IMG/VR virus record: IMGVR_UViG_3300043568_002650
Location: 512 to 64,511 of that record
Direction: 5' to 3' (one strand)
DNA from: a virus
Lineage: Duplodnaviria; Heunggongvirae; Uroviricota; Caudoviricetes
DNA: 64,000 nucleotides
The notes under the pieces were generated by a model that was not told the DNA's origin, did no database searches, and saw only the letters and a list, made by a program, of their open reading frames with translations. Position 1 is the first letter of the stretch, and each line of letters begins with the position of its first letter. Shown here in pieces: positions 2,830 to 28,579 of the stretch. Made by a program: the position numbers and the translations under genes.

Positions 2830-3324
2830 ATGTTAAGTTTTAACGACTTTTTAAACGAAAAATGGGGAGAGGACATTCAATTAAAAGAGCGTCGTGCCGT
2901 CGGTATTGTAGTGTTATGGAATAACCGAATACTCTTGATCCATCCAACTAATTCATCGTGGAAGAAATCTACATGTGGAATACCTAAAGGTAAGCTTGAA
3001 CAGGGCGAAGATTTTTTAGCTGGCGCTCTTAGAGAACTTGAAGAAGAGACTGGAATAAGATTAGACGCGTCTCAATTGGATCCAGAGCAACACAAAATTG
3101 ATTTCTATAATCACAAGAATGAAGTCGATGGTCACTTAATATATTTTGTTTGCGAGATTATGGACCTCTCAGAAATAGGCCTGGTATCTGACCGACTACC
3201 TAAAAGTCAACTTCAATTAGAAGAGGTAGATTGGGGTAAATTTGTCACCGCGGAAGAAGCATATCCAATTATTTCTAGAAATCAAATGATCATTCTAGAT
3301 AGACATCTTACTCTAAATAAATAA
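2830..3324 (+). CDS. NUDIX hydrolase
   Basis: Nudix box GKLEQGEDFLAGALRELEEETGI; N-terminus MLSFNDFLNE. Confidence 0.92.
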   Translation: MLSFNDFLNEKWGEDIQLKERRAVGIVVLWNNRILLIHPTNSSWKKSTCGIPKGKLEQGEDFLAGALRELEEETGIRLDASQLDPEQHKIDFYNHKNEVDGHLIYFVCEIMDLSEIGLVSDRLPKSQLQLEEVDWGKFVTAEEAYPIISRNQMIILDRHLTLNK

Positions 3325-14761: not shown

Positions 14762-14835
14762 GCAGGTATAGCTCAATTGGCTAGAGCGTCGCCCTTCCAA
14801 GGCGAGGGTTGTCGGTTCGAGTCCGACTACCTGCT
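14762..14835 (+). tRNA. trnG: tRNA-Gly(TCC)
   Basis: cloverleaf, loop CTTCCAA. Confidence 0.95.
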
Positions 14836-14840
14836 CTATT

Positions 14841-14915
14841 GGGTTGTTAGCTCAGATTGGCTAGAGCACTGCACTTGCACTGCAGGGGTCAAGGGTTCGA
14901 GTCCCTTACGATCCA
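14841..14915 (+). tRNA. trnA: tRNA-Ala(TGC)
   Basis: cloverleaf, G3:U70, loop CTTGCAC. Confidence 0.95.
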
Positions 14916-15717: not shown

Positions 15718-15832
15718 AGTCAGGTGGTGGAATGGTAAAGCACCTGGTGAGCGGTAAATGGTAGGGAGTCATGACCTGAGAGTATACGTTAAGTCTTGCC
15801 ATGAGATGCAGGTTCGACCCCTGTCCTGACTA
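15718..15832 (+). ncRNA. AGTCAGG-family tRNA-like RNA C
   Basis: same acceptor, D and T arms; 115 nt, no canonical anticodon arm. Confidence 0.65.
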
Positions 15833-15894: not shown

Positions 15895-16016
15895 AGTTAG
15901 GTGGTGAAATGGTAGACCGCCCCTTCTCATCAAAGGGGAGATGGAGTTCGAATCTCTGAAGTTGAGTAAAATCAACGAGTATAGTACTATTACAGGTTCG
16001 AATCCTGTCCTGACTA
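15895..16016 (+). ncRNA. AGTCAGG-family tRNA-like RNA D (CAT loop, multi-arm variable region)
   Basis: CCCCTT-CTCATCA-AAGGGG arm, second TTCGAAT loop, canonical T arm. Confidence 0.65.
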
Positions 16017-17478: not shown

Positions 17479-17600
17479 TGGGGAAGAATGCAAAACAATT
17501 CGCTCTTTTGCCGTTCTTCAGCAATGATAGTAATTAAAGAGTTTCATCGCAATTAAACAGTAAATTTAATGATTTGGCCCTAAGAAGCCCTTCCCCACCA
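17479..17600 (+). ncRNA. candidate CCA-ending structured RNA upstream of TROVE gene
   Basis: TGGGGAAG/CTTCCCCA stem then CCA; AATGCAAAA shared with the 19759 RNA. Confidence 0.5.
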
Positions 17601-17667
17601 ATTCAATAAACACAAATTTGTATCAATAAACTAGTCCTGTTTATTGTAACAAAAATGAGTTTATTAT

Positions 17668-17740
17668 GCACCTTTAGCTCAGCTGGTAGAGCGCTTGTTT
17701 TACATGCAAGATGTCACAGGTTCGATCCCTGTAGGGTGTA
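17668..17740 (+). tRNA. trnV: tRNA-Val(TAC)
   Basis: cloverleaf, loop TTTACAT. Confidence 0.95.
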
Positions 17741-17839
17741 CAAAACCTTTTTCGAAAAAAGTTTAAGCAAAAAGTGAAACTATCAGTTTTTATATTGTAT
17801 AGTATTAATCACAAAACAAAAAATTAATTCCTTGTACTA

Positions 17840-19468
17840 ATGACAAAGTTTAGAAACGACAAACTTCGTTCGACGCTAGCTGGAATGCAGCCTCAAGCGA
17901 ATCTGGTAGAAGCGGTGAAAATCCCAAAACCAGACACTAAGAATCGTCAAGGACATGCAGCTTATTCACAAGATAAGTGGCTTAGACTCTTGACGATGTT
18001 AAACACACTAAAGCTAGAAAATCAATTCTATCGTTCTGAGACAGAAACGATGAGGGAGTTGAAAGGACTAGTCGATGAGTGTGCAAAAGAAGACGCTTAC
18101 TTCGTAGCTCAATCTATCGTGTATTCACGATGTGTTGGTGAAGGAATGAGATCAATTAACCACCTTGCGGCAAGCTACCTAGCTCCACACTGTGCGGGTC
18201 AAGAATGGGCAAAACGTTTCTATTCCCTATGGAACAAACGTACTCAATCCGGAGGAACATTATTTCGTCCAGATGATATGGCTGAAATCGTTGCATGCTT
18301 CTCAGCATTAAACGGGACTAAAGTCACAAATGCAATGAAAAAAGGATTTGCTGATGCTCTTGAAAACTTAGATGCTTATGCATTACTAAAATACAAGAGC
18401 TCTCTAGTTGACGTAATCAACTTAGTTCACCCAAATCCATCAGCGTCTAGTGCAGTAGCAGAGGTAAATGGAGAAAAAGTTCCAGTTCTTTCGGCTATCA
18501 TGAAAGGCTTATCAGTATCTGCGGATACTTGGGAAGTTGCTCAGTCTGATGCAGGTCAAGAAGTTGCGAAAGCAGTTAAAGAAGGTAAAATCGACAAGTC
18601 AGAAGCTGAAACTATCCTAAAGGAAGCTAAGGCTGAAAACTGGGATGCTCTTTTAACTGACGGTAAACTTGGAATCCTAGCTGCTCTTCGAAATATTAGA
18701 AATGTATTGAAGACAGTTAACAAAGGAGACACGGTTACTAAATTGACTGCTCTTTTATCTAGTCCAGATGCAATCCGAAAAGGAAAGATTATGCCATACC
18801 AAATTGACCTAGCTCACGAGGTAACGATCTCAGAATTCTCTGATTCTAATGCTAGAGCGATTGCACAAGCATTACTTAAAGGATATGAAGCAGCTGTGCC
18901 AAACCTTTCAGAGATGCTTCCTGGTAAGACTCTAGTAATGGTGGATTTCTCTGGATCAATGGGTACACCAATGACGGATGGCGCAAGAAGCGGAAAACGT
19001 TATACTAGTCGATGCATGGATAAAGCGGCTTTGATCGCAGCAACCATTGCAAAGGCAACAAATGGAGATGTAATCCGATTTGGTTCAAGTGCTGAATACG
19101 TAAAATGGAACGCTAACTCTGATGTATTCTCTATTGCTAGCGCAATGAAGAGAGATATGGGAGGAACTAACTTATCAGCAGCATGGGCAGTAGCTCAAAT
19201 GTCTGGACGTCAGTACGACCGAGTGTTCATCTTATCTGATAATGAGTGTAACCGTGGAAACTCTTACAAAGCATACGAGACATACACAAAAGCATGCGGA
19301 AGCCCATACGTTTACTCGGTGGATCTAGCAGCTTACGGAACGACTCAACTTGCTGGAGATAAAGTTCGTTTCTACTATGGATACGGATACTCAATGTTCG
19401 ATGATATCGCAAAAAGCGAGTTCAATCCAAATTATCACTTAGAGAAAGTTCGCAAGATCAAAATCTAA
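17840..19468 (+). CDS. rsr: TROVE/vWA RNA-binding protein (Ro60/Rsr family)
   Basis: helical TROVE-like region (LKYKSSLVDVINLVHP, ALRNIRN, IMPYQI) and vWA MIDAS VDFSGSM...GGTNL...FILSDNE. Confidence 0.85.
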   Translation: MTKFRNDKLRSTLAGMQPQANLVEAVKIPKPDTKNRQGHAAYSQDKWLRLLTMLNTLKLENQFYRSETETMRELKGLVDECAKEDAYFVAQSIVYSRCVGEGMRSINHLAASYLAPHCAGQEWAKRFYSLWNKRTQSGGTLFRPDDMAEIVACFSALNGTKVTNAMKKGFADALENLDAYALLKYKSSLVDVINLVHPNPSASSAVAEVNGEKVPVLSAIMKGLSVSADTWEVAQSDAGQEVAKAVKEGKIDKSEAETILKEAKAENWDALLTDGKLGILAALRNIRNVLKTVNKGDTVTKLTALLSSPDAIRKGKIMPYQIDLAHEVTISEFSDSNARAIAQALLKGYEAAVPNLSEMLPGKTLVMVDFSGSMGTPMTDGARSGKRYTSRCMDKAALIAATIAKATNGDVIRFGSSAEYVKWNANSDVFSIASAMKRDMGGTNLSAAWAVAQMSGRQYDRVFILSDNECNRGNSYKAYETYTKACGSPYVYSVDLAAYGTTQLAGDKVRFYYGYGYSMFDDIAKSEFNPNYHLEKVRKIKI

Positions 19469-19480
19469 ATAAAAAATAAG

Positions 19481-19564
19481 ATTGCTGGGTGGCAAGTTAC
19501 AGAGTTACTTCTTTATATCTGAAACATAAAACCAAAATACTCTCGACAGTATTCCCCCAGCAAT
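19481..19564 (+). ncRNA. Y-RNA-like RNA 1 (minimal)
   Basis: 9-bp ATTGCTGGG/CCCAGCAAT stem, interrupted helix, TTACTTC motif, 13 nt after TROVE stop. Confidence 0.6.
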
Positions 19565-19571
19565 TTTTTAT

Positions 19572-19675
19572 AGTCAGGTGGCGGAATGGTAGACGCTACA
19601 TTAATGGGTGGATAGTGTGCCATTGGGGAAGAACCATAAAAGTTACACATATGGGTTCGATTCCTGTCCTGACTA
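19572..19675 (+). ncRNA. AGTCAGG-family tRNA-like RNA B
   Basis: near-copy of 15448-15551 with compensatory GCGT/ACGC to GTGT/ACAC change. Confidence 0.7.
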
Positions 19676-19696
19676 CAAAAAAATATTAAGAATAAT

Positions 19697-19728
19697 TTTA
19701 AACGTAAAAGGATTCTTAGTATTATAAT
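19697..19728 (+). promoter_or_regulatory. middle-class promoter TTTAA(A/T)-N19-20-TATAAT (also 13173, 13687, 59434, 60679)
   Basis: five + strand copies with AGTATTATA(A/G) core and near-constant spacing. Confidence 0.6.
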
Positions 19729-19758
19729 CAAGTAAACAAGTTCTTTGAAAAAAATTAA

Positions 19759-19889
19759 TTATCGGGTAGTAATGCAAAAGGTTACTTCTTAGCTCAGCGG
19801 TTGAGCAATTTTCTTAAACAAAATAGGCCGCGGGTTCAATTCCCGCAGAAGCGCGAAAGCGTTACACCTTTGCAACTTTCTCCTGATAA
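19759..19889 (+). ncRNA. Y-RNA-like RNA 2 with embedded tRNA-like cloverleaf
   Basis: TTATCGGG/CCTGATAA stem, bulged TGCAAAAGGT/ACCTTTGCA helix, D arm, CTTAAAC loop, T arm. Confidence 0.7.
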
Positions 19890-19895
19890 ACTTAT

Positions 19896-20034
19896 TAAAG
19901 GTAATAGTAATCTAAACCGTTACTTCGTCTGTTAAACGAGAGGTCGTTGGTTCGAATCCAACATGGGGAGTAATCTTCATTAGCTCAGCTGGCTAGAGCG
20001 CTAAAATCTCGGTTGGAAACTTTCTTTACCTTTA
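19896..20034 (+). ncRNA. Y-RNA-like RNA 3 with circularly permuted tRNA-Asn(GTT)
   Basis: TAAAGGTAA/TTACCTTTA stem; order: anticodon arm, T arm, ATGGGGA-GTAA-TCTTCAT closed acceptor, D arm. Confidence 0.75.
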
Positions 20035-20040
20035 TCATTT

Positions 20041-20245
20041 GGAAGATATTCCCTCAGTTATGAGCTAATAGCAGTTTATTCTAGTTTCCTATAAAACTAG
20101 AGGTGCTGTTGACTGGGGCCAGAATCAGTTAATGCCTTTTTAGAGAGCGAAGAGTTTGGAAGCGAAGCTCTACCTTTGATCAGATGCTAGCATGAAGATC
20201 AAGCATAAGAGGCCGGAAGATGGAATGTAAGCCGGCCTCTTTTTT
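20041..20245 (+). ncRNA. candidate structured ncRNA ending in a GC hairpin plus U tract
   Basis: TCTAGTTT/AAACTAGA, TTGACTG/CAGTTAA, TTGATC/GATCAA, AAGAGGCCGG/CCGGCCTCTT. Confidence 0.4.
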
Positions 20246-20259
20246 AAAATCAATTTATT

Positions 20260-20338
20260 GGAGTGTTGAGCATTTGGCTGGCTCGCTTGACTGTAAATCA
20301 AGTCCTAACGGCATGGGGGTTCGAATCCCTTCACTCCA
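20260..20338 (+). tRNA. trnY: tRNA-Tyr(GTA)
   Basis: variable arm, loop CTGTAAA. Confidence 0.92.
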
Positions 20339-20341
20339 ACG

Positions 20342-20478
20342 AAAGATAGTGGCCTTCTCTGTCGATGCTGTCGACAAGCTAAGCAGATCAAAGAATTTCA
20401 TCACCCTTTGCTGAGGCCTCATTAAAACTCAGGAAGCAATTAAGATTGGAGCGAGACGGGTACTCCATCACTATCTTT
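20342..20478 (+). ncRNA. candidate structured spacer ncRNA
   Basis: perfect 10-bp AAAGATAGTG/CACTATCTTT closing stem with internal hairpins. Confidence 0.55.
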
Positions 20479-20487
20479 TATTTTTTC

Positions 20488-20561
20488 GGTCTGTCAGTCC
20501 AGTTGGAGTGGACGCCTGCCTGTCACGTAGGAGATCACGGGTTCGAGTCCCGTACGGACCG
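20488..20561 (+). tRNA. trnD: tRNA-Asp(GTC)
   Basis: cloverleaf, loop CTGTCAC. Confidence 0.95.
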
Positions 20562-20614
20562 CCGGGAATATTTTGTACCTTCATTGAGATAAATAATCAA
20601 AATGAAGGTACACT

Positions 20615-21271
20615 ATGGCAAGAAAGGAACATCAATATCATTACATTTACAAGACTACTTGTAATGTTACTGGAAGATATTACATCGGGATGCACTCGAC
20701 TTCTAACTTAGAAGATAGATATATTGGAAGCGGGACTAGATTATGGAAGTCACTCAATAAACATGGAAAGGAGAATCATTCAATTGAAATATTAGAATGG
20801 TATTCAGATAGAAATTCATTGAAACTAAGAGAAAAAGAATTAGTTAATGAGGAAACTCTTAATGATCCAATGTGTATGAATTTAATGATTGGTGGAGGAG
20901 GTGGAAAAATATCAGACGAGCAACAAAGGTCTAGATCAATCACTGGAGGTCGTGCATTTGCTAATAAATTAAAAAGTGATCCTGAGTTATTAAAACACGT
21001 TCAAATGATTGCATCAAATAACTTGAAAAAATTACATGAGAAAGGAGATTTCAATTATAATACTTTTCAAGGAAAGACGCATTCCGATGAGACTAAAAAT
21101 AAAATTGGAGCAGCAAATTCAATTAAGCAGAGTGGATATAATAATTCACAATATGGAACTTGTTGGATAACTAATGAAATTGATTCTAAGAAAATTCATA
21201 AGGGCGATCTTATCCCAAGTGGATGGAGATTAGGTCGAAAAGCCCTCAAAATAAGAAGTCGTAACTCCTAG
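20615..21271 (+). CDS. GIY-YIG homing endonuclease with NUMOD3-like motif (Seg-like)
   Basis: YIYKTTCNVTGRYYIGMHST...YIGSG; GKTHSDETKNKIG. Confidence 0.88.
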   Translation: MARKEHQYHYIYKTTCNVTGRYYIGMHSTSNLEDRYIGSGTRLWKSLNKHGKENHSIEILEWYSDRNSLKLREKELVNEETLNDPMCMNLMIGGGGGKISDEQQRSRSITGGRAFANKLKSDPELLKHVQMIASNNLKKLHEKGDFNYNTFQGKTHSDETKNKIGAANSIKQSGYNNSQYGTCWITNEIDSKKIHKGDLIPSGWRLGRKALKIRSRNS

Positions 21272-22598: not shown

Positions 22599-24278
22599 TT
22601 GGCACCTTTTCATATATTTGCAAAGAAAAATGCAAAGAAACTTTCAAATTTTAAAGTAGGAGTTAGCCTACGAATAAAGATAAAATTAGCAATTGCTGCA
22701 ATTCTAATGATTGCATATATGTGCGTTAAAATTTCAATTCTTGCTGGATTGCGTGAGTCTACTGAGGTTACTCGATGGATAGAATTTGTTGGTGTTATTT
22801 CATATATTCTAATATCAATCCTATTAATTAAAGACTTTATCAATTTAACTAAACATTCAGTATCTAAGGAATCTATTGATAAGATGAGTGAGTTAGAAAA
22901 TTTCTTAGACTCTTCGTCAATTATATCTAAGGCTGATGCTAAAGGTAAAATTACTTATGTAAATGATAAATTCACTAAGGTTTCTGGTTACTCACTAGAA
23001 GAAGTGCTTGGAAAAGATCACTCTATTGTAAATTCAGGAGATCAACCTGATGGATATTGGGGAAAAATGTATGCTCAAGTTCTTACTGGAAAAATATGGA
23101 ATGATGTAGTCACAAATAGAGCAAAGGATGGCTCTCTATATTATGTAGATACTTATATCAAAGCTCAATTTAATCAGCATGGTAAGCTTGAAGGATTTAT
23201 GTCGATTCGCCAAGATGTTACTGAGCTACGAAGAAGGGAGGCTGAGATATCTAATAGAATGAATGCAATTAATAGATCAAATGCTGTTATTGAATTTGAC
23301 CTAGATGGAAATATTAAATTTGCAAACGATTTATTTTTAAAAACATTAGGCTACTCCTTAAATAGTGAAATTATAGGAAAACACCATAGTTTATTTGTTG
23401 AAGATGAAGTAATAGATACTGATGAATATCGAGACTTTTGGAAAACATTGGGCACTGGCAAATTCTTTATGGGAGAGATCACTCGAAAGAAGAAAGACGG
23501 ATCACTAATCTATCTTCAAGCAACATATAATCCTATTATAGGCACTGATGGAAAGCCATATCGAGTAATGAAAATCGCTACTGATATTACTCAAAGTTTT
23601 AATCAACAAGCTGAAATTGAAAAGAAGAATACTTATCTTGAGCATGCGGCAAAGATTCTACGGCATGATATGCATAGTGGAATCAATACCTATATGCCTC
23701 GAGGATTATCATCACTAGAACGAAGACTTTCAGATGACCAGATAAAAGAGCTTAAGATTGAAGCTCCACTAAAAATGATTAAAGAAGGATTACGACACAC
23801 TCAAAAAGTATATAAAGGAGTTTACGAATTTACTAATCTAGTAAAAAAGGATGTTGTTCTTACTCGCGAAGACTTAAATCTCAAAGACATACTCGAGGAC
23901 TATTTGTCCTCGACTGCATATAGACCGCAAGTAATAATCTCAGATCTAGGTCAGTCTAGTGTTAATGAAGCATTATTTTGTACTTCATTAGATAATCTTA
24001 TTCGTAATGGTTTAAAGTATAATGACAGTCCTAGTAAACTAGTTAAGATATACCGTATTGATGATATTCTTTATGTTGAAGACAATGGACGCGGTTTAAG
24101 CCAAGAAGATTTTAACCATCTTTCCAAACCATATACACGAAAAGAAGGACAGCAGGAATCAGGAACTGGTCTTGGGCTTAATATCTGTATTGCAATTCTT
24201 GAAGAACATGGATTCTCTATTACTTGTTCTAAACTTTCACAAGTTGGAACGCAAATGAAAATACGACTAAGCAGATAA
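22599..24278 (+). CDS. PAS/PAC sensor histidine kinase
   Basis: 2 TM helices, two PAS-PAC units, H box RHDMHSG, N box DNLIRNGLKY, G1 EDNGRG, G2 GTGLGL. Confidence 0.92.
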   Translation: MAPFHIFAKKNAKKLSNFKVGVSLRIKIKLAIAAILMIAYMCVKISILAGLRESTEVTRWIEFVGVISYILISILLIKDFINLTKHSVSKESIDKMSELENFLDSSSIISKADAKGKITYVNDKFTKVSGYSLEEVLGKDHSIVNSGDQPDGYWGKMYAQVLTGKIWNDVVTNRAKDGSLYYVDTYIKAQFNQHGKLEGFMSIRQDVTELRRREAEISNRMNAINRSNAVIEFDLDGNIKFANDLFLKTLGYSLNSEIIGKHHSLFVEDEVIDTDEYRDFWKTLGTGKFFMGEITRKKKDGSLIYLQATYNPIIGTDGKPYRVMKIATDITQSFNQQAEIEKKNTYLEHAAKILRHDMHSGINTYMPRGLSSLERRLSDDQIKELKIEAPLKMIKEGLRHTQKVYKGVYEFTNLVKKDVVLTREDLNLKDILEDYLSSTAYRPQVIISDLGQSSVNEALFCTSLDNLIRNGLKYNDSPSKLVKIYRIDDILYVEDNGRGLSQEDFNHLSKPYTRKEGQQESGTGLGLNICIAILEEHGFSITCSKLSQVGTQMKIRLSR

Positions 24279-24886
24279 TGACAAAAATCCTTCACTTATT
24301 CTTCTTTCTTTTTTTATCATTTTTATCATACACACAAAATGACTACCCAGTTCAAACTGTTTTGAAAGGTGATTCTGTGGTAATCTATACAGTTGAGCAA
24401 AATAATGATATAGAGTTTCTTTTAGCAAACCAGAGAAACCGTGTAAACTATTTTAAAAATAATATTGCTAGACAAGAAGAGATTATTGATAGTCTAAATC
24501 GGCTAGTACAAAAGCAAAAACTTTTTGCTGACAGTTTACAGCTGATCCTAAACACAAATTCTAGTGATTATGATAGTTTATATGCAAAGTATCGCAATAC
24601 AGAAAAATGGCTTTATAATACAGCAGTTGACAATGCATTTATTTATTATTCATTTGAAAACTCTGCAGTCATGGCTATTGATTTAACCTCATATGTTTTA
24701 GTAGGTTATAAAAGATCTGGTAATTTTTTATTAGCACGCAGAGGACCAGTGTATGATGATCTGTACTGGAAAGAGTATAATCGAAACTACCCAAGTGAGC
24801 CTAACAACGATTGGCTTACCTTTTACAAAATACGTTGGAGGCCTTCGTTAGTGCAGTTTCCTTATCGAATAAACCCACAGCCATGA
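24278..24886 (+). CDS. exported hypothetical protein with coiled coil
   Basis: signal-peptide-like N-terminus MTKILHLFFFLFLSFLSYTQ. Confidence 0.75.
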   Translation: MTKILHLFFFLFLSFLSYTQNDYPVQTVLKGDSVVIYTVEQNNDIEFLLANQRNRVNYFKNNIARQEEIIDSLNRLVQKQKLFADSLQLILNTNSSDYDSLYAKYRNTEKWLYNTAVDNAFIYYSFENSAVMAIDLTSYVLVGYKRSGNFLLARRGPVYDDLYWKEYNRNYPSEPNNDWLTFYKIRWRPSLVQFPYRINPQP

Positions 24887-26331
24887 AAAAACTACTTATC
24901 ACAGCAATATTAATACTATTTGGTATTAGTTTTACAAGCGCTCAATACTCTGTAAAAGATCAAGAGAAAAAAATTGTTTGGGTTAGCGGCATACCTACCT
25001 GTCCAAGTGATCCACAAATAACGGCCTTAATCGAAAAAGCTGGACTTGAAAACTTAAAAAAGCCTAAAAAAGGAATTACTAGAGCTGAATCTAATACTTG
25101 TCGGGAACTCGGTAAAGTGTTTAACCAAAGGGAAATGTATGAAGGTGCAGATTGGTATCTAGAGAGAGTGAAAGGTTATGTTGAAGTTATTAATTTAGCA
25201 CCTGATGCAGTATTTGAAATGCCAAAGGAAATTGAGGAAATGCCATTATCCGAAGATAATGTAAAATCATTAGAGTCAGATAAAGCATTCTTAGAAAATC
25301 TCCCACAAAGCTACGATGACGTTTCCCCTAATGACATGAAAAAACTTGCTAGTGAAATTGGAAATAAACTAAAAGCTCTAATTGCAGAAAAGGAAGCTCT
25401 ACTCACAAGTCATGCTCCGCAAGAAGTAATCGACGTAAAGGACGCTACTATTGGAACTCTTGGAAAAGAGAAAAAAATTATCGATCTATCAATTAAAAAA
25501 GATGGATTGGAAGTTGAAGTTGATGACTTAGAAGTTGAAAAGAAAACTTTGACCAAATGGTTATGGTTGTCATGTGCAAGTATATTAGTCGCTTTCTTAG
25601 GGATCATTGCACTACTTCAAAGAAAAACAATTAAAGTAAAAGACGGTGAGATTGAAAGACAGCTGGCAGATATTAATAAAAAGAATACTTATTTAGAATA
25701 TGCGGCACGAATCATTCGTCATGATATGCATAGCGGAATCAATACTTATATGCCTCGAGGATTAAGTGGTTTACAAAAGCGAATTACTCCAGAGATTATT
25801 GCCGAACTTAAAATTGGATCCTCTATACAAATGATACAAGAAGGTCTTTTACATACACAAAAAGTTTATAAAAATGTTTATGAATTTACTAATCTTGTAA
25901 AGGTGAAATCTGAGTTTAATAAAGTGGAAATTGATGCTAAAATCTCATTAGAAAAGTACTTATCAAGCACATCGTATAGTAAACAAGTAAAGATTTTAGA
26001 TCTCGGTACACTATTAGCAAATGAACAATTGTTATGTAATGCTATAGATAATTTAATTAAGAATGGACTTAAATATAATGACCACACGATCAGAACAATC
26101 AAAATATATAAATTAAAAGATTTTATTATTGTTGAAGATAACGGCAAAGGTCTTACCTCTCAAAAATTTGAAGAGTACGTGAAAAGAGGAGTAGATATTG
26201 AAGCTGAAACAGGATTAGGTTTAGGGATTGCGAAAGCAATTATTGAAGAGCATGGATTTAAGCTATCCTGTGAAGAAATACCTTCAGGTGGAACAAAAAT
26301 GAAAATTAAAATAACAAATAATAATGATTGA
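24883..26331 (+). CDS. membrane sensor histidine kinase
   Basis: start MKKLLITAIL (signal peptide), one TM helix, RHDMHSG H box, DNLIKNGLKY, EDNGKG, GLGLGI. Confidence 0.9.
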   Translation: MKKLLITAILILFGISFTSAQYSVKDQEKKIVWVSGIPTCPSDPQITALIEKAGLENLKKPKKGITRAESNTCRELGKVFNQREMYEGADWYLERVKGYVEVINLAPDAVFEMPKEIEEMPLSEDNVKSLESDKAFLENLPQSYDDVSPNDMKKLASEIGNKLKALIAEKEALLTSHAPQEVIDVKDATIGTLGKEKKIIDLSIKKDGLEVEVDDLEVEKKTLTKWLWLSCASILVAFLGIIALLQRKTIKVKDGEIERQLADINKKNTYLEYAARIIRHDMHSGINTYMPRGLSGLQKRITPEIIAELKIGSSIQMIQEGLLHTQKVYKNVYEFTNLVKVKSEFNKVEIDAKISLEKYLSSTSYSKQVKILDLGTLLANEQLLCNAIDNLIKNGLKYNDHTIRTIKIYKLKDFIIVEDNGKGLTSQKFEEYVKRGVDIEAETGLGLGIAKAIIEEHGFKLSCEEIPSGGTKMKIKITNNND

Positions 26332-27751: not shown

Positions 27752-28579
27752 ATGTTACTAAAGAAAGGATCCTCTGGAGAGGACGTAAAAAGACTTCAGA
27801 TAAAATTAGGCCTTACTCCAGATGCGGGTGTTGCACAGTTTGGTCCAAAGACGGAATCCGCTGTTAAATCATGGCAAAAAGCAAATGGTTTAGAAGATGA
27901 TGGTATAGTAGGTGATACTACTTGGGGAAAACTATTTGGTGTAACTGATCAGATCACAGATGCAGTTACTCAAGTTCAAGGTCTTGCTCTAGATAAACTA
28001 AAGGGGCATATTGCAGAGGTAGTATTTCAACAAATCGCAGGAGTATGTAAGGCATTTAATATTACAAATAATTTAAGACTAGCTCATTTTCTTGCACAGT
28101 GTTCACATGAATCAGGTGGATTTAAAGCAGTGAGTGAAAACTTAAATTACTCAGCAGATGGACTAAAGAAAATATTTCCAAAATATTTTCCAGGAAACCT
28201 AAATGAGTCATATGCAAGACAACCTGAAAAGATTGCAAGCAGAGTCTATGGCGGTCGTATGGGAAATGGTGATGAGTCAACTAAGGAAGGTTACAAGTTT
28301 AGAGGTCGCGGATATATCCAATTAACTGGTAAAAGCAATTATGAAACATTTACTAAATTTATTGGCGAAGACTGTATTGCTAATCCTGACCTAGTTGCAA
28401 CAAAATATCCATTAGCATCAGCTGCATTCTTCTTTAATAAAAATGGACTATGGTCAATTTGTGATAAAGGAGCAGATGACACGACTGTTACTGCTGTGAC
28501 TAAAAGAGTAAACGGTGGAACGATTGGATTAGCGGATCGTATTAAACACTTTAAGGAATATTATAATCTACTTAAGTAA
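27752..28579 (+). CDS. endolysin: PG-binding domain plus GH19 glycosidase
   Basis: LKKGSSGEDVKRLQ..FGPKTESAVKSWQ..DGIVG; AHFLAQCSHESGGF; FRGRGYIQLTG; VTKRVNGG. Confidence 0.93.
   Translation: MLLKKGSSGEDVKRLQIKLGLTPDAGVAQFGPKTESAVKSWQKANGLEDDGIVGDTTWGKLFGVTDQITDAVTQVQGLALDKLKGHIAEVVFQQIAGVCKAFNITNNLRLAHFLAQCSHESGGFKAVSENLNYSADGLKKIFPKYFPGNLNESYARQPEKIASRVYGGRMGNGDESTKEGYKFRGRGYIQLTGKSNYETFTKFIGEDCIANPDLVATKYPLASAAFFFNKNGLWSICDKGADDTTVTAVTKRVNGGTIGLADRIKHFKEYYNLLK

What the first reader, a model, noticed from the sequence alone, without database searches (positions are those of the whole stretch)
19896..20034. Circularly permuted tRNA-Asn embedded in a Y-like RNA
Seen, 5' to 3': anticodon arm TCGT-CTGTTAA-ACGA, variable GAGGTC, T arm GTTGG-TTCGAAT-CCAAC, acceptor 3' half ATGGGGA, GTAA loop (its first G at the discriminator position, as in tRNA-Asn), acceptor 5' half TCTTCAT, D arm GCTC-AGCTGGCTA-GAGC. 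The break is between the D and anticodon arms and is joined to the terminal stem. Known: YrlA has a loop-closed acceptor stem. Keeping a complete GUU anticodon arm suggests decoy function or a processable cryptic tRNA.
Basis: partly seen in the sequence, partly recalled or inferred. Interest (0 to 1): 0.8.

Follow-up and report, generated by a model that had tools for sequence, protein, structure and literature searches.

The report
Phage Y RNA mimicking a tRNA
This is a small non-coding RNA of a known type (a YrlA-class "Y RNA") that sits beside a lake phage's Ro60-like protein gene and imitates a tRNA in scrambled order; it is one more member of a family already described in bacteria and phages, with the extra detail that it keeps a very convincing anticodon arm.

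Summary

It is not a chance look-alike or a decayed tRNA pair. It lies 429 nt downstream of a 542-aa TROVE + Ro60-vWA gene (rsr). The same architecture occurs in 69 viral contigs and 24 bacterial genome contigs, and 55 of the 69 viral loci carry rsr nearby on the same strand. All six helices covary.

It is therefore a YrlA-class Y RNA (Chen 2014; Wang 2018), a kind already reported in phages. This scan has also found the kind before on other DNA.

The "anticodon arm" is what Chen 2014 called the V stem-loop. Across the family it keeps anticodon-loop grammar: a 7-nt loop, U33, U36-A37 or G36-G37, and A38. Positions 34-35 vary, so "tRNA-Asn" is not a conserved identity.

A processable cryptic tRNA is very unlikely. 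A decoy role stays open and untested.

Verdict: new member of a known kind, moderate interest.

The parts
17840..19468 (+). rsr: 542-aa Ro60-like protein (TROVE domain plus Ro60 vWA domain), the presumed protein partner of the RNA
   Evidence: Pfam TROVE E 3.2e-7 and vWA_Ro60 E 1.3e-5. The best solved-structure match is Thermus phage phiLo Ro60, PDB 9KOP/9L5Y, E 8e-13. Homologs lie beside the related RNAs in 55 of 69 viral loci.
19897..20033 (+). The Y RNA of the finding (YrlA class), whole molecule as far as pairing shows. True 5' and 3' ends are unknown.
   Evidence: The only full-length match to family model R1 in the window: 19897-20032, 108 bits (it is one of the training sequences). Partial Rfam YrlA match 19939-20002. 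Direct reading.
19897..19919 (+). 5' strand of the terminal, presumed Ro-binding, stem: outer stem 19897-19904, internal loop UAGUAAUCUA 19905-19914 (holds the degenerate counterpart of the GNCGAA motif), inner stem 19915-19919
   Evidence: Direct reading. Both stems covary in the family (helices 1 and 2: 90.9% and 90.5% paired, all 10 pairs with double changes). The motif assignment is by alignment to relatives with AGUGAAAG / GGCGUAG and is inferred.
19920..19923 (+). UUAC linker, the conserved YUAY of YrlA RNAs
   Evidence: Conserved in the family alignment. Chen 2014 (PMC4201824) names a conserved YUAY that begins the V loop.
19924..19940 (+). Anticodon-arm mimic (the 'V' stem-loop of Chen 2014): 5-bp stem and 7-nt loop C32 U33 G34 U35 U36 A37 A38
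   Evidence: Direct reading. The two loop-proximal pairs show 25 and 38 double changes. Loop statistics, column entropy.
19941..19945 (+). Class-I variable loop AGGUC. C48 can pair with G15 (19988), the Levitt pair.
   Evidence: Nearly invariant in the family (entropy 0-0.4 bits). Direct reading.
19946..19962 (+). T arm GUUGG / UUCGAAU / CCAAC
   Evidence: Direct reading. 100% paired, with double changes in 4 of 5 pairs. Rfam YrlA and tRNA models align it.
19963..19980 (+). Loop-closed acceptor-like stem: 7 bp with a GUAA loop
   Evidence: Direct reading. All 7 pairs covary in the family. In the close relative L058, 19976 U>C turns a G.U into a G-C.
19981..20000 (+). U8 A9, D arm GCUC / AGCUGGCUA / GAGC, and G26
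   Evidence: Direct reading. Invariant in the family, though partly by design of the search pattern.
20001..20033 (+). A-rich linker CUAAAAUCU 20001-20009, then the 3' strand of the terminal stem: inner 20010-20014, pyrimidine-rich internal loop 20015-20025, outer 20026-20033
   Evidence: Direct reading. GCUAAAA was part of the search pattern, so its conservation in the pattern-selected set is not informative. Related U-A-A-A runs recur in copies found only by the model.
19481..19564 (+). First Y-like RNA of the cluster (minimal: terminal stem, UGGCAA loop, UUACUUC). Context, not the finding.
   Evidence: MFE fold z -3.9. Shares the frame with the other two by eye. Nearly identical in L058. 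Not tested further.
19759..19889 (+). Second Y-like RNA: the same frame around a non-permuted cloverleaf, called 'tRNA-Leu(taa)' by ARAGORN (19783-19854). Context, not the finding.
   Evidence: Rfam's tRNA model matches only positions 3-68 (5-bp acceptor). Identical in L058. Not tested further.

Best explanation
Window 19897-20033 encodes a roughly 137-nt YrlA-class Y RNA. It is the third of three tandem Y-like RNAs directly downstream of the rsr (Ro60-like) gene of a freshwater phage, inside the phage's 25-tRNA island.

Shown here: the two ends pair into an interrupted stem, and the middle is a tRNA-shaped domain in permuted order (anticodon-like arm, variable loop, T arm, closed acceptor, D arm). 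The domain has all the nucleotides needed for the tRNA elbow and core contacts: U8-A14, G15-C48, G18G19 with U55C56, and T54-A58.

Inferred by homology to characterised systems: the terminal stem binds the phage Rsr ring. The tRNA-like domain is the effector or gate module that brings Rsr together with a host tRNA- or RNA-handling protein. The most likely partner is PNPase, in a RYPER-like particle as for D. radiodurans, Salmonella and Thermus phage phiLo. The particle would reshape host RNA decay or tRNA surveillance during infection.

The anticodon-like hairpin is a selected feature of this phage-rich subfamily, but its ligand is unknown.
For: - The rsr gene has TROVE and Ro60-vWA domains and ends 429 nt upstream on the same strand. 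Its nearest solved structure is phage phiLo Ro60.
- There is a partial match to Rfam YrlA. The YrlA hallmarks named in Chen 2014 are present: T arm before D arm, closed acceptor stem, a fourth stem-loop upstream of T, and the YUAY motif.
- The family comprises 69 viral and 24 genome loci. rsr lies on the same strand, mostly within 1 kb, in 55 of the 69 viral loci, and most of the rest have short flanks.
- rsr is the only recurrent neighbouring protein: 54 loci, against 9 or fewer for any other cluster, and those are antisense ORFs.
- All six helices covary.
- Many loci carry 2-3 copies. The window has three Y-like RNAs that share UUACUUC and the loop motifs.
- Literature: YrlA binds Rsr and carries tRNA modifications (PMC4201824). 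The Salmonella YrlA domain has a tRNA L-shape (10.1101/312249). Phage phiLo Ro60 binds two phage Y-like RNAs and host PNPase in vitro (PMC12135203). The Ro60-like gp130 of phage Bas63, upstream of its tRNA genes, counters the Ppl defence (PMC11482910).
Against: - No binding, transcript-end or modification data exist for this RNA.
- The Rfam YrlA score (30 bits) is far below the gathering score (69). That model has no place for the hairpin.
- The Ro-binding motif GNCGAA is degenerate here (AGUAAU).
- No RtcB was found in the 128.5-kb record, so an RNA-repair-operon context is absent. The record is only about 51% complete.
- Which helix stacks under the D stem, the hairpin or the terminal stem, cannot be decided from sequence.
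- The PNPase partner is assumed by analogy only.
Confidence: 0.85

Rival explanations
1. Bait or decoy. The hairpin is a true anticodon-stem-loop mimic presented on the Rsr particle. It would titrate, sense or divert host enzymes that act on anticodon loops: anticodon nucleases of anti-phage systems, or position-34/37 modification enzymes. This would protect the phage's and host's tRNAs. The idea refines the best explanation rather than replacing it.
For: - Anticodon-loop grammar is kept while the stem covaries: 7-nt loop in 72 of 79, U33 in 66 of 72, A38 in 68 of 72, and positions 36-37 are U-A (48) or G-G (15).
- Positions 34-35 are the most variable unpaired positions of the core (1.65 and 1.70 bits, against 0.35 for position 33 and 0.22 for position 38). 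They differ between otherwise near-identical relatives, for example L049 GUU against L023 UCU.
- The 36-37 spectrum differs from that of real tRNAs in the same loci: U-A 36%, A-A 21%, C-A 14%, G-G 13%; chi-square p about 2e-8, not corrected for phylogeny.
- Established knowledge: U36-A37 marks tRNAs that receive t6A37, and G36-G37 is the TrmD determinant.
- Hughes 2020 proposed that YrlA might competitively inhibit an anticodon nuclease (PMC7790460).
- PARIS AriB recognises the tRNA-Lys anticodon loop (10.1101/2024.01.02.573894).
- Bas63 gp130 counters a defence system (PMC11482910).
Against: - There is no experimental link between any YrlA hairpin and a nuclease or a modification enzyme.
- Salmonella YrlA has no such loop yet belongs to the same family.
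- The lower three stem pairs (UUC/GAG) are sequence-conserved and are shared with the two other Y-like RNAs of the window, where UUACUUC forms other helices. Part of the hairpin may therefore be a protein-binding motif rather than a tRNA mimic.
- Sequences are related, so the counts are not independent events.
- The scan's earlier 'bold readings' of such modules were priced low on later checks.
Confidence: 0.2
2. Nicked tRNA mimic. As in M. smegmatis YrlA, RNase P cuts 5' of U19974 because the acceptor stem has exactly 7 bp. The GUAA trailer is then trimmed and CCA is added. The result is a two-piece, open-ended tRNA-like RNA still held together by the terminal stem. In the extreme version it is charged by AsnRS.
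For: - The window's acceptor is 7 bp with a 4-nt loop.
- Among 62 relatives, the run of uninterrupted pairs from the base of the acceptor hairpin is 7 bp in 15 and 8 bp in 14.
- G follows the 3' half of the stem, as G73 does in tRNA-Asn (direct reading; the identity rule is from established knowledge of E. coli tRNA-Asn).
Against: - Acceptor length and the 'discriminator' base are not conserved, even among GUU-type relatives: C in the Caulobacter phages, and 8-10 bp stems in L026, L028 and L040.
- No read-level data exist. The metatranscriptome material is contigs only.
- Charging has not been seen for any Y RNA.
Confidence: 0.2
3. Permuted pre-tRNA. The RNA is processed through a circular intermediate into a working tRNA-Asn(GUU), as in Cyanidioschyzon or Thermofilum.
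For: - ARAGORN accepts the permuted sequence as tRNA-Asn.
- Wang 2018 notes the formal resemblance of YrlA to permuted pre-tRNAs.
Against: - There is no bulge-helix-bulge at the break. The linkers are 4 and 9-10 nt next to a long irregular stem.
- No splicing endonuclease is known in bacteria or phages (Wang 2018).
- Relatives carry 'anticodons' that do not fit their bodies (GCU with a 5-nt variable loop), loops of 6 or 8 nt, and acceptor hairpins of 15-49 nt.
- A normal tRNA-Asn(GUU) lies 1.3 kb downstream.
- Linkage to rsr is tight.
Confidence: 0.03
4. No function. The element is a decaying pair of adjacent tRNA genes (the 3' part of one and the 5' part of the next) that happens to fold.
For: - Tandem tRNAs in the window give partial matches to the family model, for example Gly-Ala 14789-14870 at 41.6 bits.
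- The Synechococcus phage S-T4 blastn hit is just such a tandem.
- A dimeric-tRNA origin is the published model for YrlA.
Against: - The two acceptor halves pair with each other, and all 7 pairs covary.
- The terminal stems covary.
- The architecture is conserved across very different phages and bacterial phyla, together with rsr.
- The near-identical relative L058 has only two changes, one of them pair-improving.
Confidence: 0.02

Closest known systems
YrlA (Y RNA-like A; Rfam RF02553) of Salmonella Typhimurium and M. smegmatis, with phage examples such as Caulobacter phage CcrColossus (Chen et al. 2014, PMC4201824; Wang et al. 2018, 10.1101/312249)
   Same: - Encoded next to rsr.
- The ends form the Ro-binding stem.
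- The tRNA-like domain has the T arm before the D arm and a loop-closed acceptor stem.
- YUAY motif, Levitt-pair potential, and a fourth ('V') stem-loop upstream of the T arm in many members.
- The CcrColossus RNA has the same CUGUUAA hairpin.
   Different: - Salmonella YrlA 'lacks the anticodon loop', and its terminal stem runs straight into the D arm as the anticodon stem. Here a closed 5-bp/7-nt hairpin precedes a full 5-nt variable loop, and the terminal stem is joined through 4-nt and 9-nt linkers.
- The Ro motif is degenerate.
- The Rfam model scores only 30 bits.
- There is no rtcBA operon context.
Thermus phage phiLo Ro60 with Yrl1/Yrl2 (NAR 2025, PMC12135203; PDB 9KOP, 9L5Y)
   Same: A phage-encoded Ro60 homolog (best solved-structure match of the window's Rsr) with two or more Y-like RNAs encoded beside it. 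It is the only phage Ro60-Y RNA system with biochemistry that I found: RNA binding through a CGAA bulge, and a ternary complex with host PNPase.
   Different: - The phiLo RNAs lie upstream of the gene and are described as stem-bulge-stem RNAs. That paper reports no tRNA-like domain.
- Here the RNAs lie downstream and two of the three carry tRNA-shaped domains.
Circularly permuted tRNA genes of Cyanidioschyzon merolae and Thermofilum pendens (cited in Wang 2018)
   Same: The 3' half of the cloverleaf is encoded before the 5' half, the acceptor ends are joined by a short loop, and the RNA termini pair.
   Different: - Those genes have a bulge-helix-bulge at the break and are cut and ligated by the archaeal/eukaryal splicing machinery into real tRNAs.
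- Here there is no such motif and no such enzyme, the 'anticodons' vary, and the partner is an Ro60 protein.
Class II tRNA long variable arm
   Same: If the terminal stem is taken as the anticodon stem (the Chen 2014 drawing), the hairpin sits where a long variable arm would.
   Different: As I recall, long variable arms of class II tRNAs have 3-7 bp stems, 3-5 nt loops and only 1-2 nt before the T stem. Here the hairpin has 5 bp, a 7-nt U-turn-type loop, and a complete AGGUC class-I variable loop after it.

Membership tests
YrlA-class Y RNA | Encoded adjacent to an Ro60/Rsr (TROVE) gene | tested here: met
   rsr is at 17840-19468 on the same strand, 429 nt upstream. 55 of 69 related loci also have rsr.
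YrlA-class Y RNA | tRNA-like domain with the T arm 5' of the D arm and a loop-closed acceptor-like stem between them | tested here: met
   Direct reading. Aligned by Rfam YrlA model positions 24-84. Covariation.
YrlA-class Y RNA | Nucleotides for the tRNA tertiary contacts (U8-A14, R15-Y48, G18G19 with U55C56, T54-A58) | tested here: met
   All are present by direct reading of 19941-19999. Whether the contacts form was not tested.
YrlA-class Y RNA | Conserved YUAY before the V loop | tested here: met
   UUAC at 19920-19923, conserved in the family.
YrlA-class Y RNA | 5'/3' terminal stem carrying the GNCGAA(N)G Ro-binding motif near the 5' end | tested here: inconclusive
   The stem is present and covaries. 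The motif position holds UAGUAAU here, where relatives have AGUGAAAG, AGCGAAAU or GGCGUAG.
YrlA-class Y RNA | Reaches the Rfam RF02553 gathering score (69 bits) | tested here: not met
   30 bits, partial match. The model consensus has 4 nt where this RNA has a 17-nt hairpin plus a 5-nt loop. This is a curation threshold, not a biological criterion.
YrlA-class Y RNA | Bound by Rsr; carries pseudouridine-55 and dihydrouridine | not testable with these tools
   Needs immunoprecipitation or EMSA, and modification mapping.
Circularly permuted pre-tRNA (processed to a working tRNA) | Bulge-helix-bulge motif at the junction of the termini | tested here: not met
   At the break (20000/19924) there are unequal single-stranded linkers of 4 and 9-10 nt beside a 5-bp helix. 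There are no 3-nt bulges separated by 4 bp.
Circularly permuted pre-tRNA (processed to a working tRNA) | Anticodon, body and acceptor identity kept together in orthologs | tested here: not met
   The anticodon varies (GUU 15 of 72), there are class-I bodies with GCU, and acceptor length and discriminator vary.
Circularly permuted pre-tRNA (processed to a working tRNA) | Circular intermediate and a mature, re-ordered tRNA detectable | not testable with these tools
   Only contigs of metatranscriptomes were available.
Canonical tRNA gene | Called by tRNA finders in native order | tested here: not met
   ARAGORN gives no call at 19897-20033. The Rfam tRNA model gives only a partial 23-bit match to the anticodon and T arms.

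The most novel reading that the evidence does not exclude
The so-called V stem-loop of phage-type YrlA RNAs is an anticodon-stem-loop mimic under selection: a 7-nt loop with Y32, U33, then U36-A37 or G36-G37, then A38. Its 'anticodon' positions 34-35 turn over quickly. If so, phage Rsr-Y RNA particles display a bait anticodon arm for host anticodon-directed enzymes, meaning anti-phage anticodon nucleases or the t6A37/m1G37/Q34 machinery. The window's GUU version, with its exact 7-bp acceptor, would additionally be opened by RNase P into a tRNA-Asn-like two-piece RNA.
Probability: 0.15. Interest if true: 0.7.

Novelty: new member of a known kind. Interest (0 to 1): 0.38.

Why it matters
The function of the tRNA-like half of bacterial and phage Y RNAs is still unknown, and no effector has been found. 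This element adds nothing categorically new. It is one of a large phage-borne subfamily, below the Rfam threshold, whose extra hairpin obeys the rules of an anticodon loop. That gives concrete, cheap experiments: look for t6A, m1G or queuosine in the hairpin, and test cleavage or binding by anticodon nucleases. These could reveal what the Rsr-Y RNA particle does during infection, at a time when tRNA-targeting defence and phage counter-defence is an active field. Practically, it also warns that some 'tRNA' calls next to phage Ro-like genes are Y RNAs rather than decoding tRNAs. Examples are the window's tRNA-Leu(taa) at 19783-19854 and the 74-nt tRNA-Ser(gct) of Streptomyces phage Alone3.

Tried and rejected
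- Folding energy: the z-score is only -1.2 to -1.8, so stability alone is no evidence.
- Rfam at gathering thresholds: nothing at this place.
- Promoter and terminator scan of 17600-20700: counts are no higher than in shuffles, and no unit boundaries could be set.
- RNAalifold on the MAFFT alignment missed the hairpin and the terminal stems because of misalignment. I therefore counted pairs on structures I named.
- The structure I gave for model R1 was one base out of register for the window's inner stem. The model consequently aligns the window as UAAAC/GGUUG with one mismatch. The better pairing, AACCG/CGGUU, is by direct reading.
- The search for related loci with a 16-sequence Rsr alignment failed because no stretch was conserved enough. 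I could therefore not collect bacterial rsr loci without bias, and I have no direct sample of classical cellular YrlA hairpins.
- RtcB (PF01139) in the phage record: none found. The record is about half complete, so this is not evidence of absence.
- Metatranscriptomes: lake-water RNA-library contigs cover rsr to 19599 in two runs of one study. One 119-nt contig covers 19916-20034 and one 195-nt contig covers 19969-20162. Contigs show neither ends, strand nor level, and DNA may be present, so I do not count this as proof of expression.
- A recent copy of the phage's own tRNA-Asn: rejected.
- A pairing of UUAC with G(C)UAA that would extend a Salmonella-like anticodon stem: possible on paper, but it cannot be tested because GCUAAAA was fixed by my search pattern.
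- The reviews by Sim and Wolin 2018, Boccitto and Wolin 2019, and Sim et al. 2020 are not held. I therefore cannot exclude that the anticodon-like nature of the V loop is already noted there.
- My recollection that PARIS also cuts tRNA-Asn and tRNA-Thr was not found in the preprint I could read, and I do not use it.

Full report
**1. What is there**

The window is a stretch of a 128.5-kb viral record (IMG/VR type, about 51% complete). It carries 25 ARAGORN-called tRNAs between 13.7 and 22.6 kb. DNA runs from many lake-water studies hold the stretch, so this is a freshwater phage.

- an 8-bp outer stem (19897-19904 with 20026-20033);
- an internal loop;
- a 5-bp inner stem (19915-19919 with 20010-20014);
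- UUAC;
- a hairpin UUCGU-CUGUUAA-ACGAG (19924-19940);
- AGGUC;
- the T arm GUUGG-UUCGAAU-CCAAC;
- a 7-bp stem AUGGGGA/UCUUCAU closed by GUAA;
- UA;
- the D arm GCUC-AGCUGGCUA-GAGC;
- G;
- a 9-nt A-rich linker.

ARAGORN does not call the native order. After manual permutation it calls tRNA-Asn(gtt), 77 nt.

**2. What it belongs to**

The ORF that ends 429 nt upstream (17840-19468) is a TROVE + Ro60-vWA protein. Its best solved relative is the Ro60 of Thermus phage phiLo.

The Rfam YrlA model aligns to the T-acceptor-D core at 30 bits (gathering score 69). blastn found the same arrangement, including the CUGUUAA hairpin, in Xanthomonas phage Tabio (just upstream of a 440-aa ORF) and in Caulobacter phage CcrColossus (upstream of its TROVE gene). 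A third hit, in Synechococcus phage S-T4, is only a normal tRNA tandem.

**3. The family**

I searched with a pattern that fixes only the T loop, the D arm and the following GCUAAAA. It says nothing about the hairpin or the stems.
- It found 69 IMG/VR contigs and 24 bacterial genome contigs from many phyla.
- An iterated Rsr profile finds rsr on the same strand, mostly within 1 kb, in 55 of the 69 viral loci. Most of the others have too little flank.
- rsr is also present in 17 of the 24 genome loci.
- rsr is the only neighbour that recurs. The protein and its RNA travel as a self-contained module.

A covariance model (R1) built on 61 members gave these results:
- It finds exactly one full-length copy in the window (108 bits).
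- It finds 2-3 copies in many other loci.
- It finds weaker members beside Ro-like genes of Rhizobium, Gordonia and Streptomyces phages.

On the model-based alignment all six helices covary. Paired cells are 93.7%, against 61.5% in shuffles and 32-45% with slid partners, and 29 of 31 pairs show double changes. That alignment is fitted to the model. The MAFFT-based counts, which are not fitted, agree for the hairpin, the T arm and the acceptor.

The close relative L058 differs in the RNA at two positions only. One of them turns a G.U of the acceptor into a G-C.

**4. The hairpin**

Chen et al. [quoted passage not shown] Wang et al. 2018 state that Salmonella YrlA lacks the anticodon loop.

In the family collected here it is far from nondescript.
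- 72 of 79 members have a 7-nt loop on a 5-bp stem.
- U33 occurs in 66 of 72 and A38 in 68 of 72.
- Positions 36-37 are U-A in 48 and G-G in 15.
- Positions 34-35 are the most variable unpaired positions of the core.
- The hairpin is always followed by an almost invariant AGGUC, a complete class-I variable loop.
- ARAGORN accepts 59 of 62 permuted constructs as tRNAs.
- Real tRNAs called in the same loci have a broader 36-37 spectrum: U-A 36%, A-A 21%, C-A 14%, G-G 13%.

The hairpin therefore looks like an anticodon arm that has been kept as such, favouring the two classes whose position 37 is modified by the t6A machinery or by TrmD. That last link comes from established knowledge and was not tested.

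Two cautions apply.
- The sequences are related, so the counts are not independent events.
- The lower stem (UUC/GAG) is sequence-conserved, and UUACUUC recurs in the window's two other Y-like RNAs, where it forms other helices. Part of the hairpin may be a protein-recognition motif.

**5. What it is not**

The "anticodon" is GUU in only 15 of 72. GCU (10 members) sits on a body with a 5-nt variable loop, which is not a bacterial tRNA-Ser. Acceptor hairpins range from 15 to 49 nt, and the base after the stem is not conserved among GUU-type members.

The domain is no closer to the phage's own tRNA-Asn than to its other tRNAs. There is no bulge-helix-bulge at the break. A working, processable tRNA-Asn is therefore very unlikely.

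A decayed tRNA tandem is excluded by the covariation of the acceptor and terminal stems. A dimeric-tRNA origin, the published model, fits well. Here the first tRNA would have contributed the anticodon arm, variable loop, T arm and 3' acceptor strand. The second would have contributed the 5' acceptor strand and the D arm. The window's own Gly-Ala tandem scores 41.6 bits against the family model.

**6. Mechanism**

Shown: the RNA architecture, its conservation, and its linkage to rsr.

Inferred from characterised relatives:
- The terminal stem binds the Rsr ring.
- The tRNA-like domain engages a host factor.
- In D. radiodurans and Salmonella the partner is PNPase (Chen 2013/2014).
- Phage phiLo Ro60 binds its two Y-like RNAs and host PNPase and damps its activity in vitro (PMC12135203).
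- The Ro60-like gp130 of phage Bas63, also upstream of tRNA genes, counters the Ppl defence (PMC11482910).

[quoted passage not shown] A decoy or bait role of the hairpin toward anticodon-directed enzymes is attractive but untested. Hughes 2020 suggested competitive inhibition of an anticodon nuclease by YrlA.

Metatranscriptome contigs from lakes touch the locus, including a 119-nt contig at 19916-20034. They cannot prove a transcript.

**7. Novelty**

YrlA-type RNAs next to phage rsr genes have been known since 2014, and CcrColossus was among the examples according to PMC12135203. This scan has also reported such modules in many other genomes.

The element is a new member of a known kind. 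The family-wide anticodon-loop grammar of the V hairpin is, as far as the papers I could read show, not described.

Noticed in passing
window 19759-19889: ARAGORN's 'tRNA-Leu(taa)' (19783-19854) sits inside the same Y-RNA frame: terminal stem, UAGUAAU loop, UUACUUC, and a pyrimidine-rich 3' loop. It has only a 5-bp acceptor followed by a CGC-GAAA-GCG hairpin. It is probably a second, non-permuted tRNA-mimic Y RNA rather than a decoding tRNA. It is identical in relative L058.
   Followed up: partly
window 19481-19564: An 84-nt minimal Y-like RNA lies directly after the rsr stop codon. It has a 9-bp terminal stem, a UGGCAA loop and UUACUUC, and no tRNA-like domain. The MFE z-score is -3.9.
   Followed up: partly
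L058:~3127-3300 (-), between the counterparts of window 19889 and 19890: The near-identical relative carries a fourth Y-like cassette of about 173 nt: T arm, closed acceptor, Leu-type D arm, same UUACUUCG frame. It is flanked on both sides by AACUUAUUA, so the Y-RNA cassettes appear to be gained or lost as units.
   Followed up: partly
window 19572-19675 (also 15718-15832 and 15895-16016): These are tRNA-model matches with a 44-nt or longer insert where the anticodon arm should be, sharing the acceptor AGUCAGG/CCUGACU. In L058 the insert of the 19572 copy is replaced by a shorter, unrelated sequence.
   Followed up: no
family alignment A3, loop positions 36-37: The two adjacent loop positions co-vary as U-A (48) or G-G (15), with almost no A36 or C36. 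G-G-A loops dominate in the bacterial genome hits and U-A-A loops in the viral ones.
   Followed up: partly
L110:1863-1990 (Streptomyces phage Alone3): A 74-nt 'tRNA-Ser(gct)', annotated just before the Ro-like gene, overlaps a full-length match to the family model (38 bits). Like the window's tRNA-Leu(taa), it may be a Y RNA annotated as a tRNA. An annotated tRNA-Asn(gtt) lies 500 nt further upstream.
   Followed up: partly
window 20130-20250: This structured stretch is conserved in L058 and ends in a strong hairpin plus U-run (20207-20243). The 90 nt before it (20040-20130) are not conserved. It may be another small RNA, or the 3' end of the Y-RNA transcription unit.
   Followed up: no
window 20615-21271: A GIY-YIG/NUMOD3 homing-endonuclease-like ORF lies inside the tRNA array, between tRNA-Asp and tRNA-Asn.
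   Followed up: no
window 22599-26331: Two histidine-kinase-type ORFs (PAS-PAS-HATPase, and HATPase) are encoded by the phage directly after the tRNA island and upstream of a GH19/peptidoglycan-binding endolysin (27752-28579).
   Followed up: no
L105 (Bacteroides crAss-like phage PhiCrAssBcn24) and L108 (Halogranum virus HGTV-1): TROVE genes also occur in crAss-like phages and in an archaeal tailed virus. The family model gives only a 27-bit match downstream of the crAss gene and none in HGTV-1, so their partner RNAs, if any, are of another kind. A band-7/SPFH gene lies 2 kb from the crAss TROVE gene.
   Followed up: no
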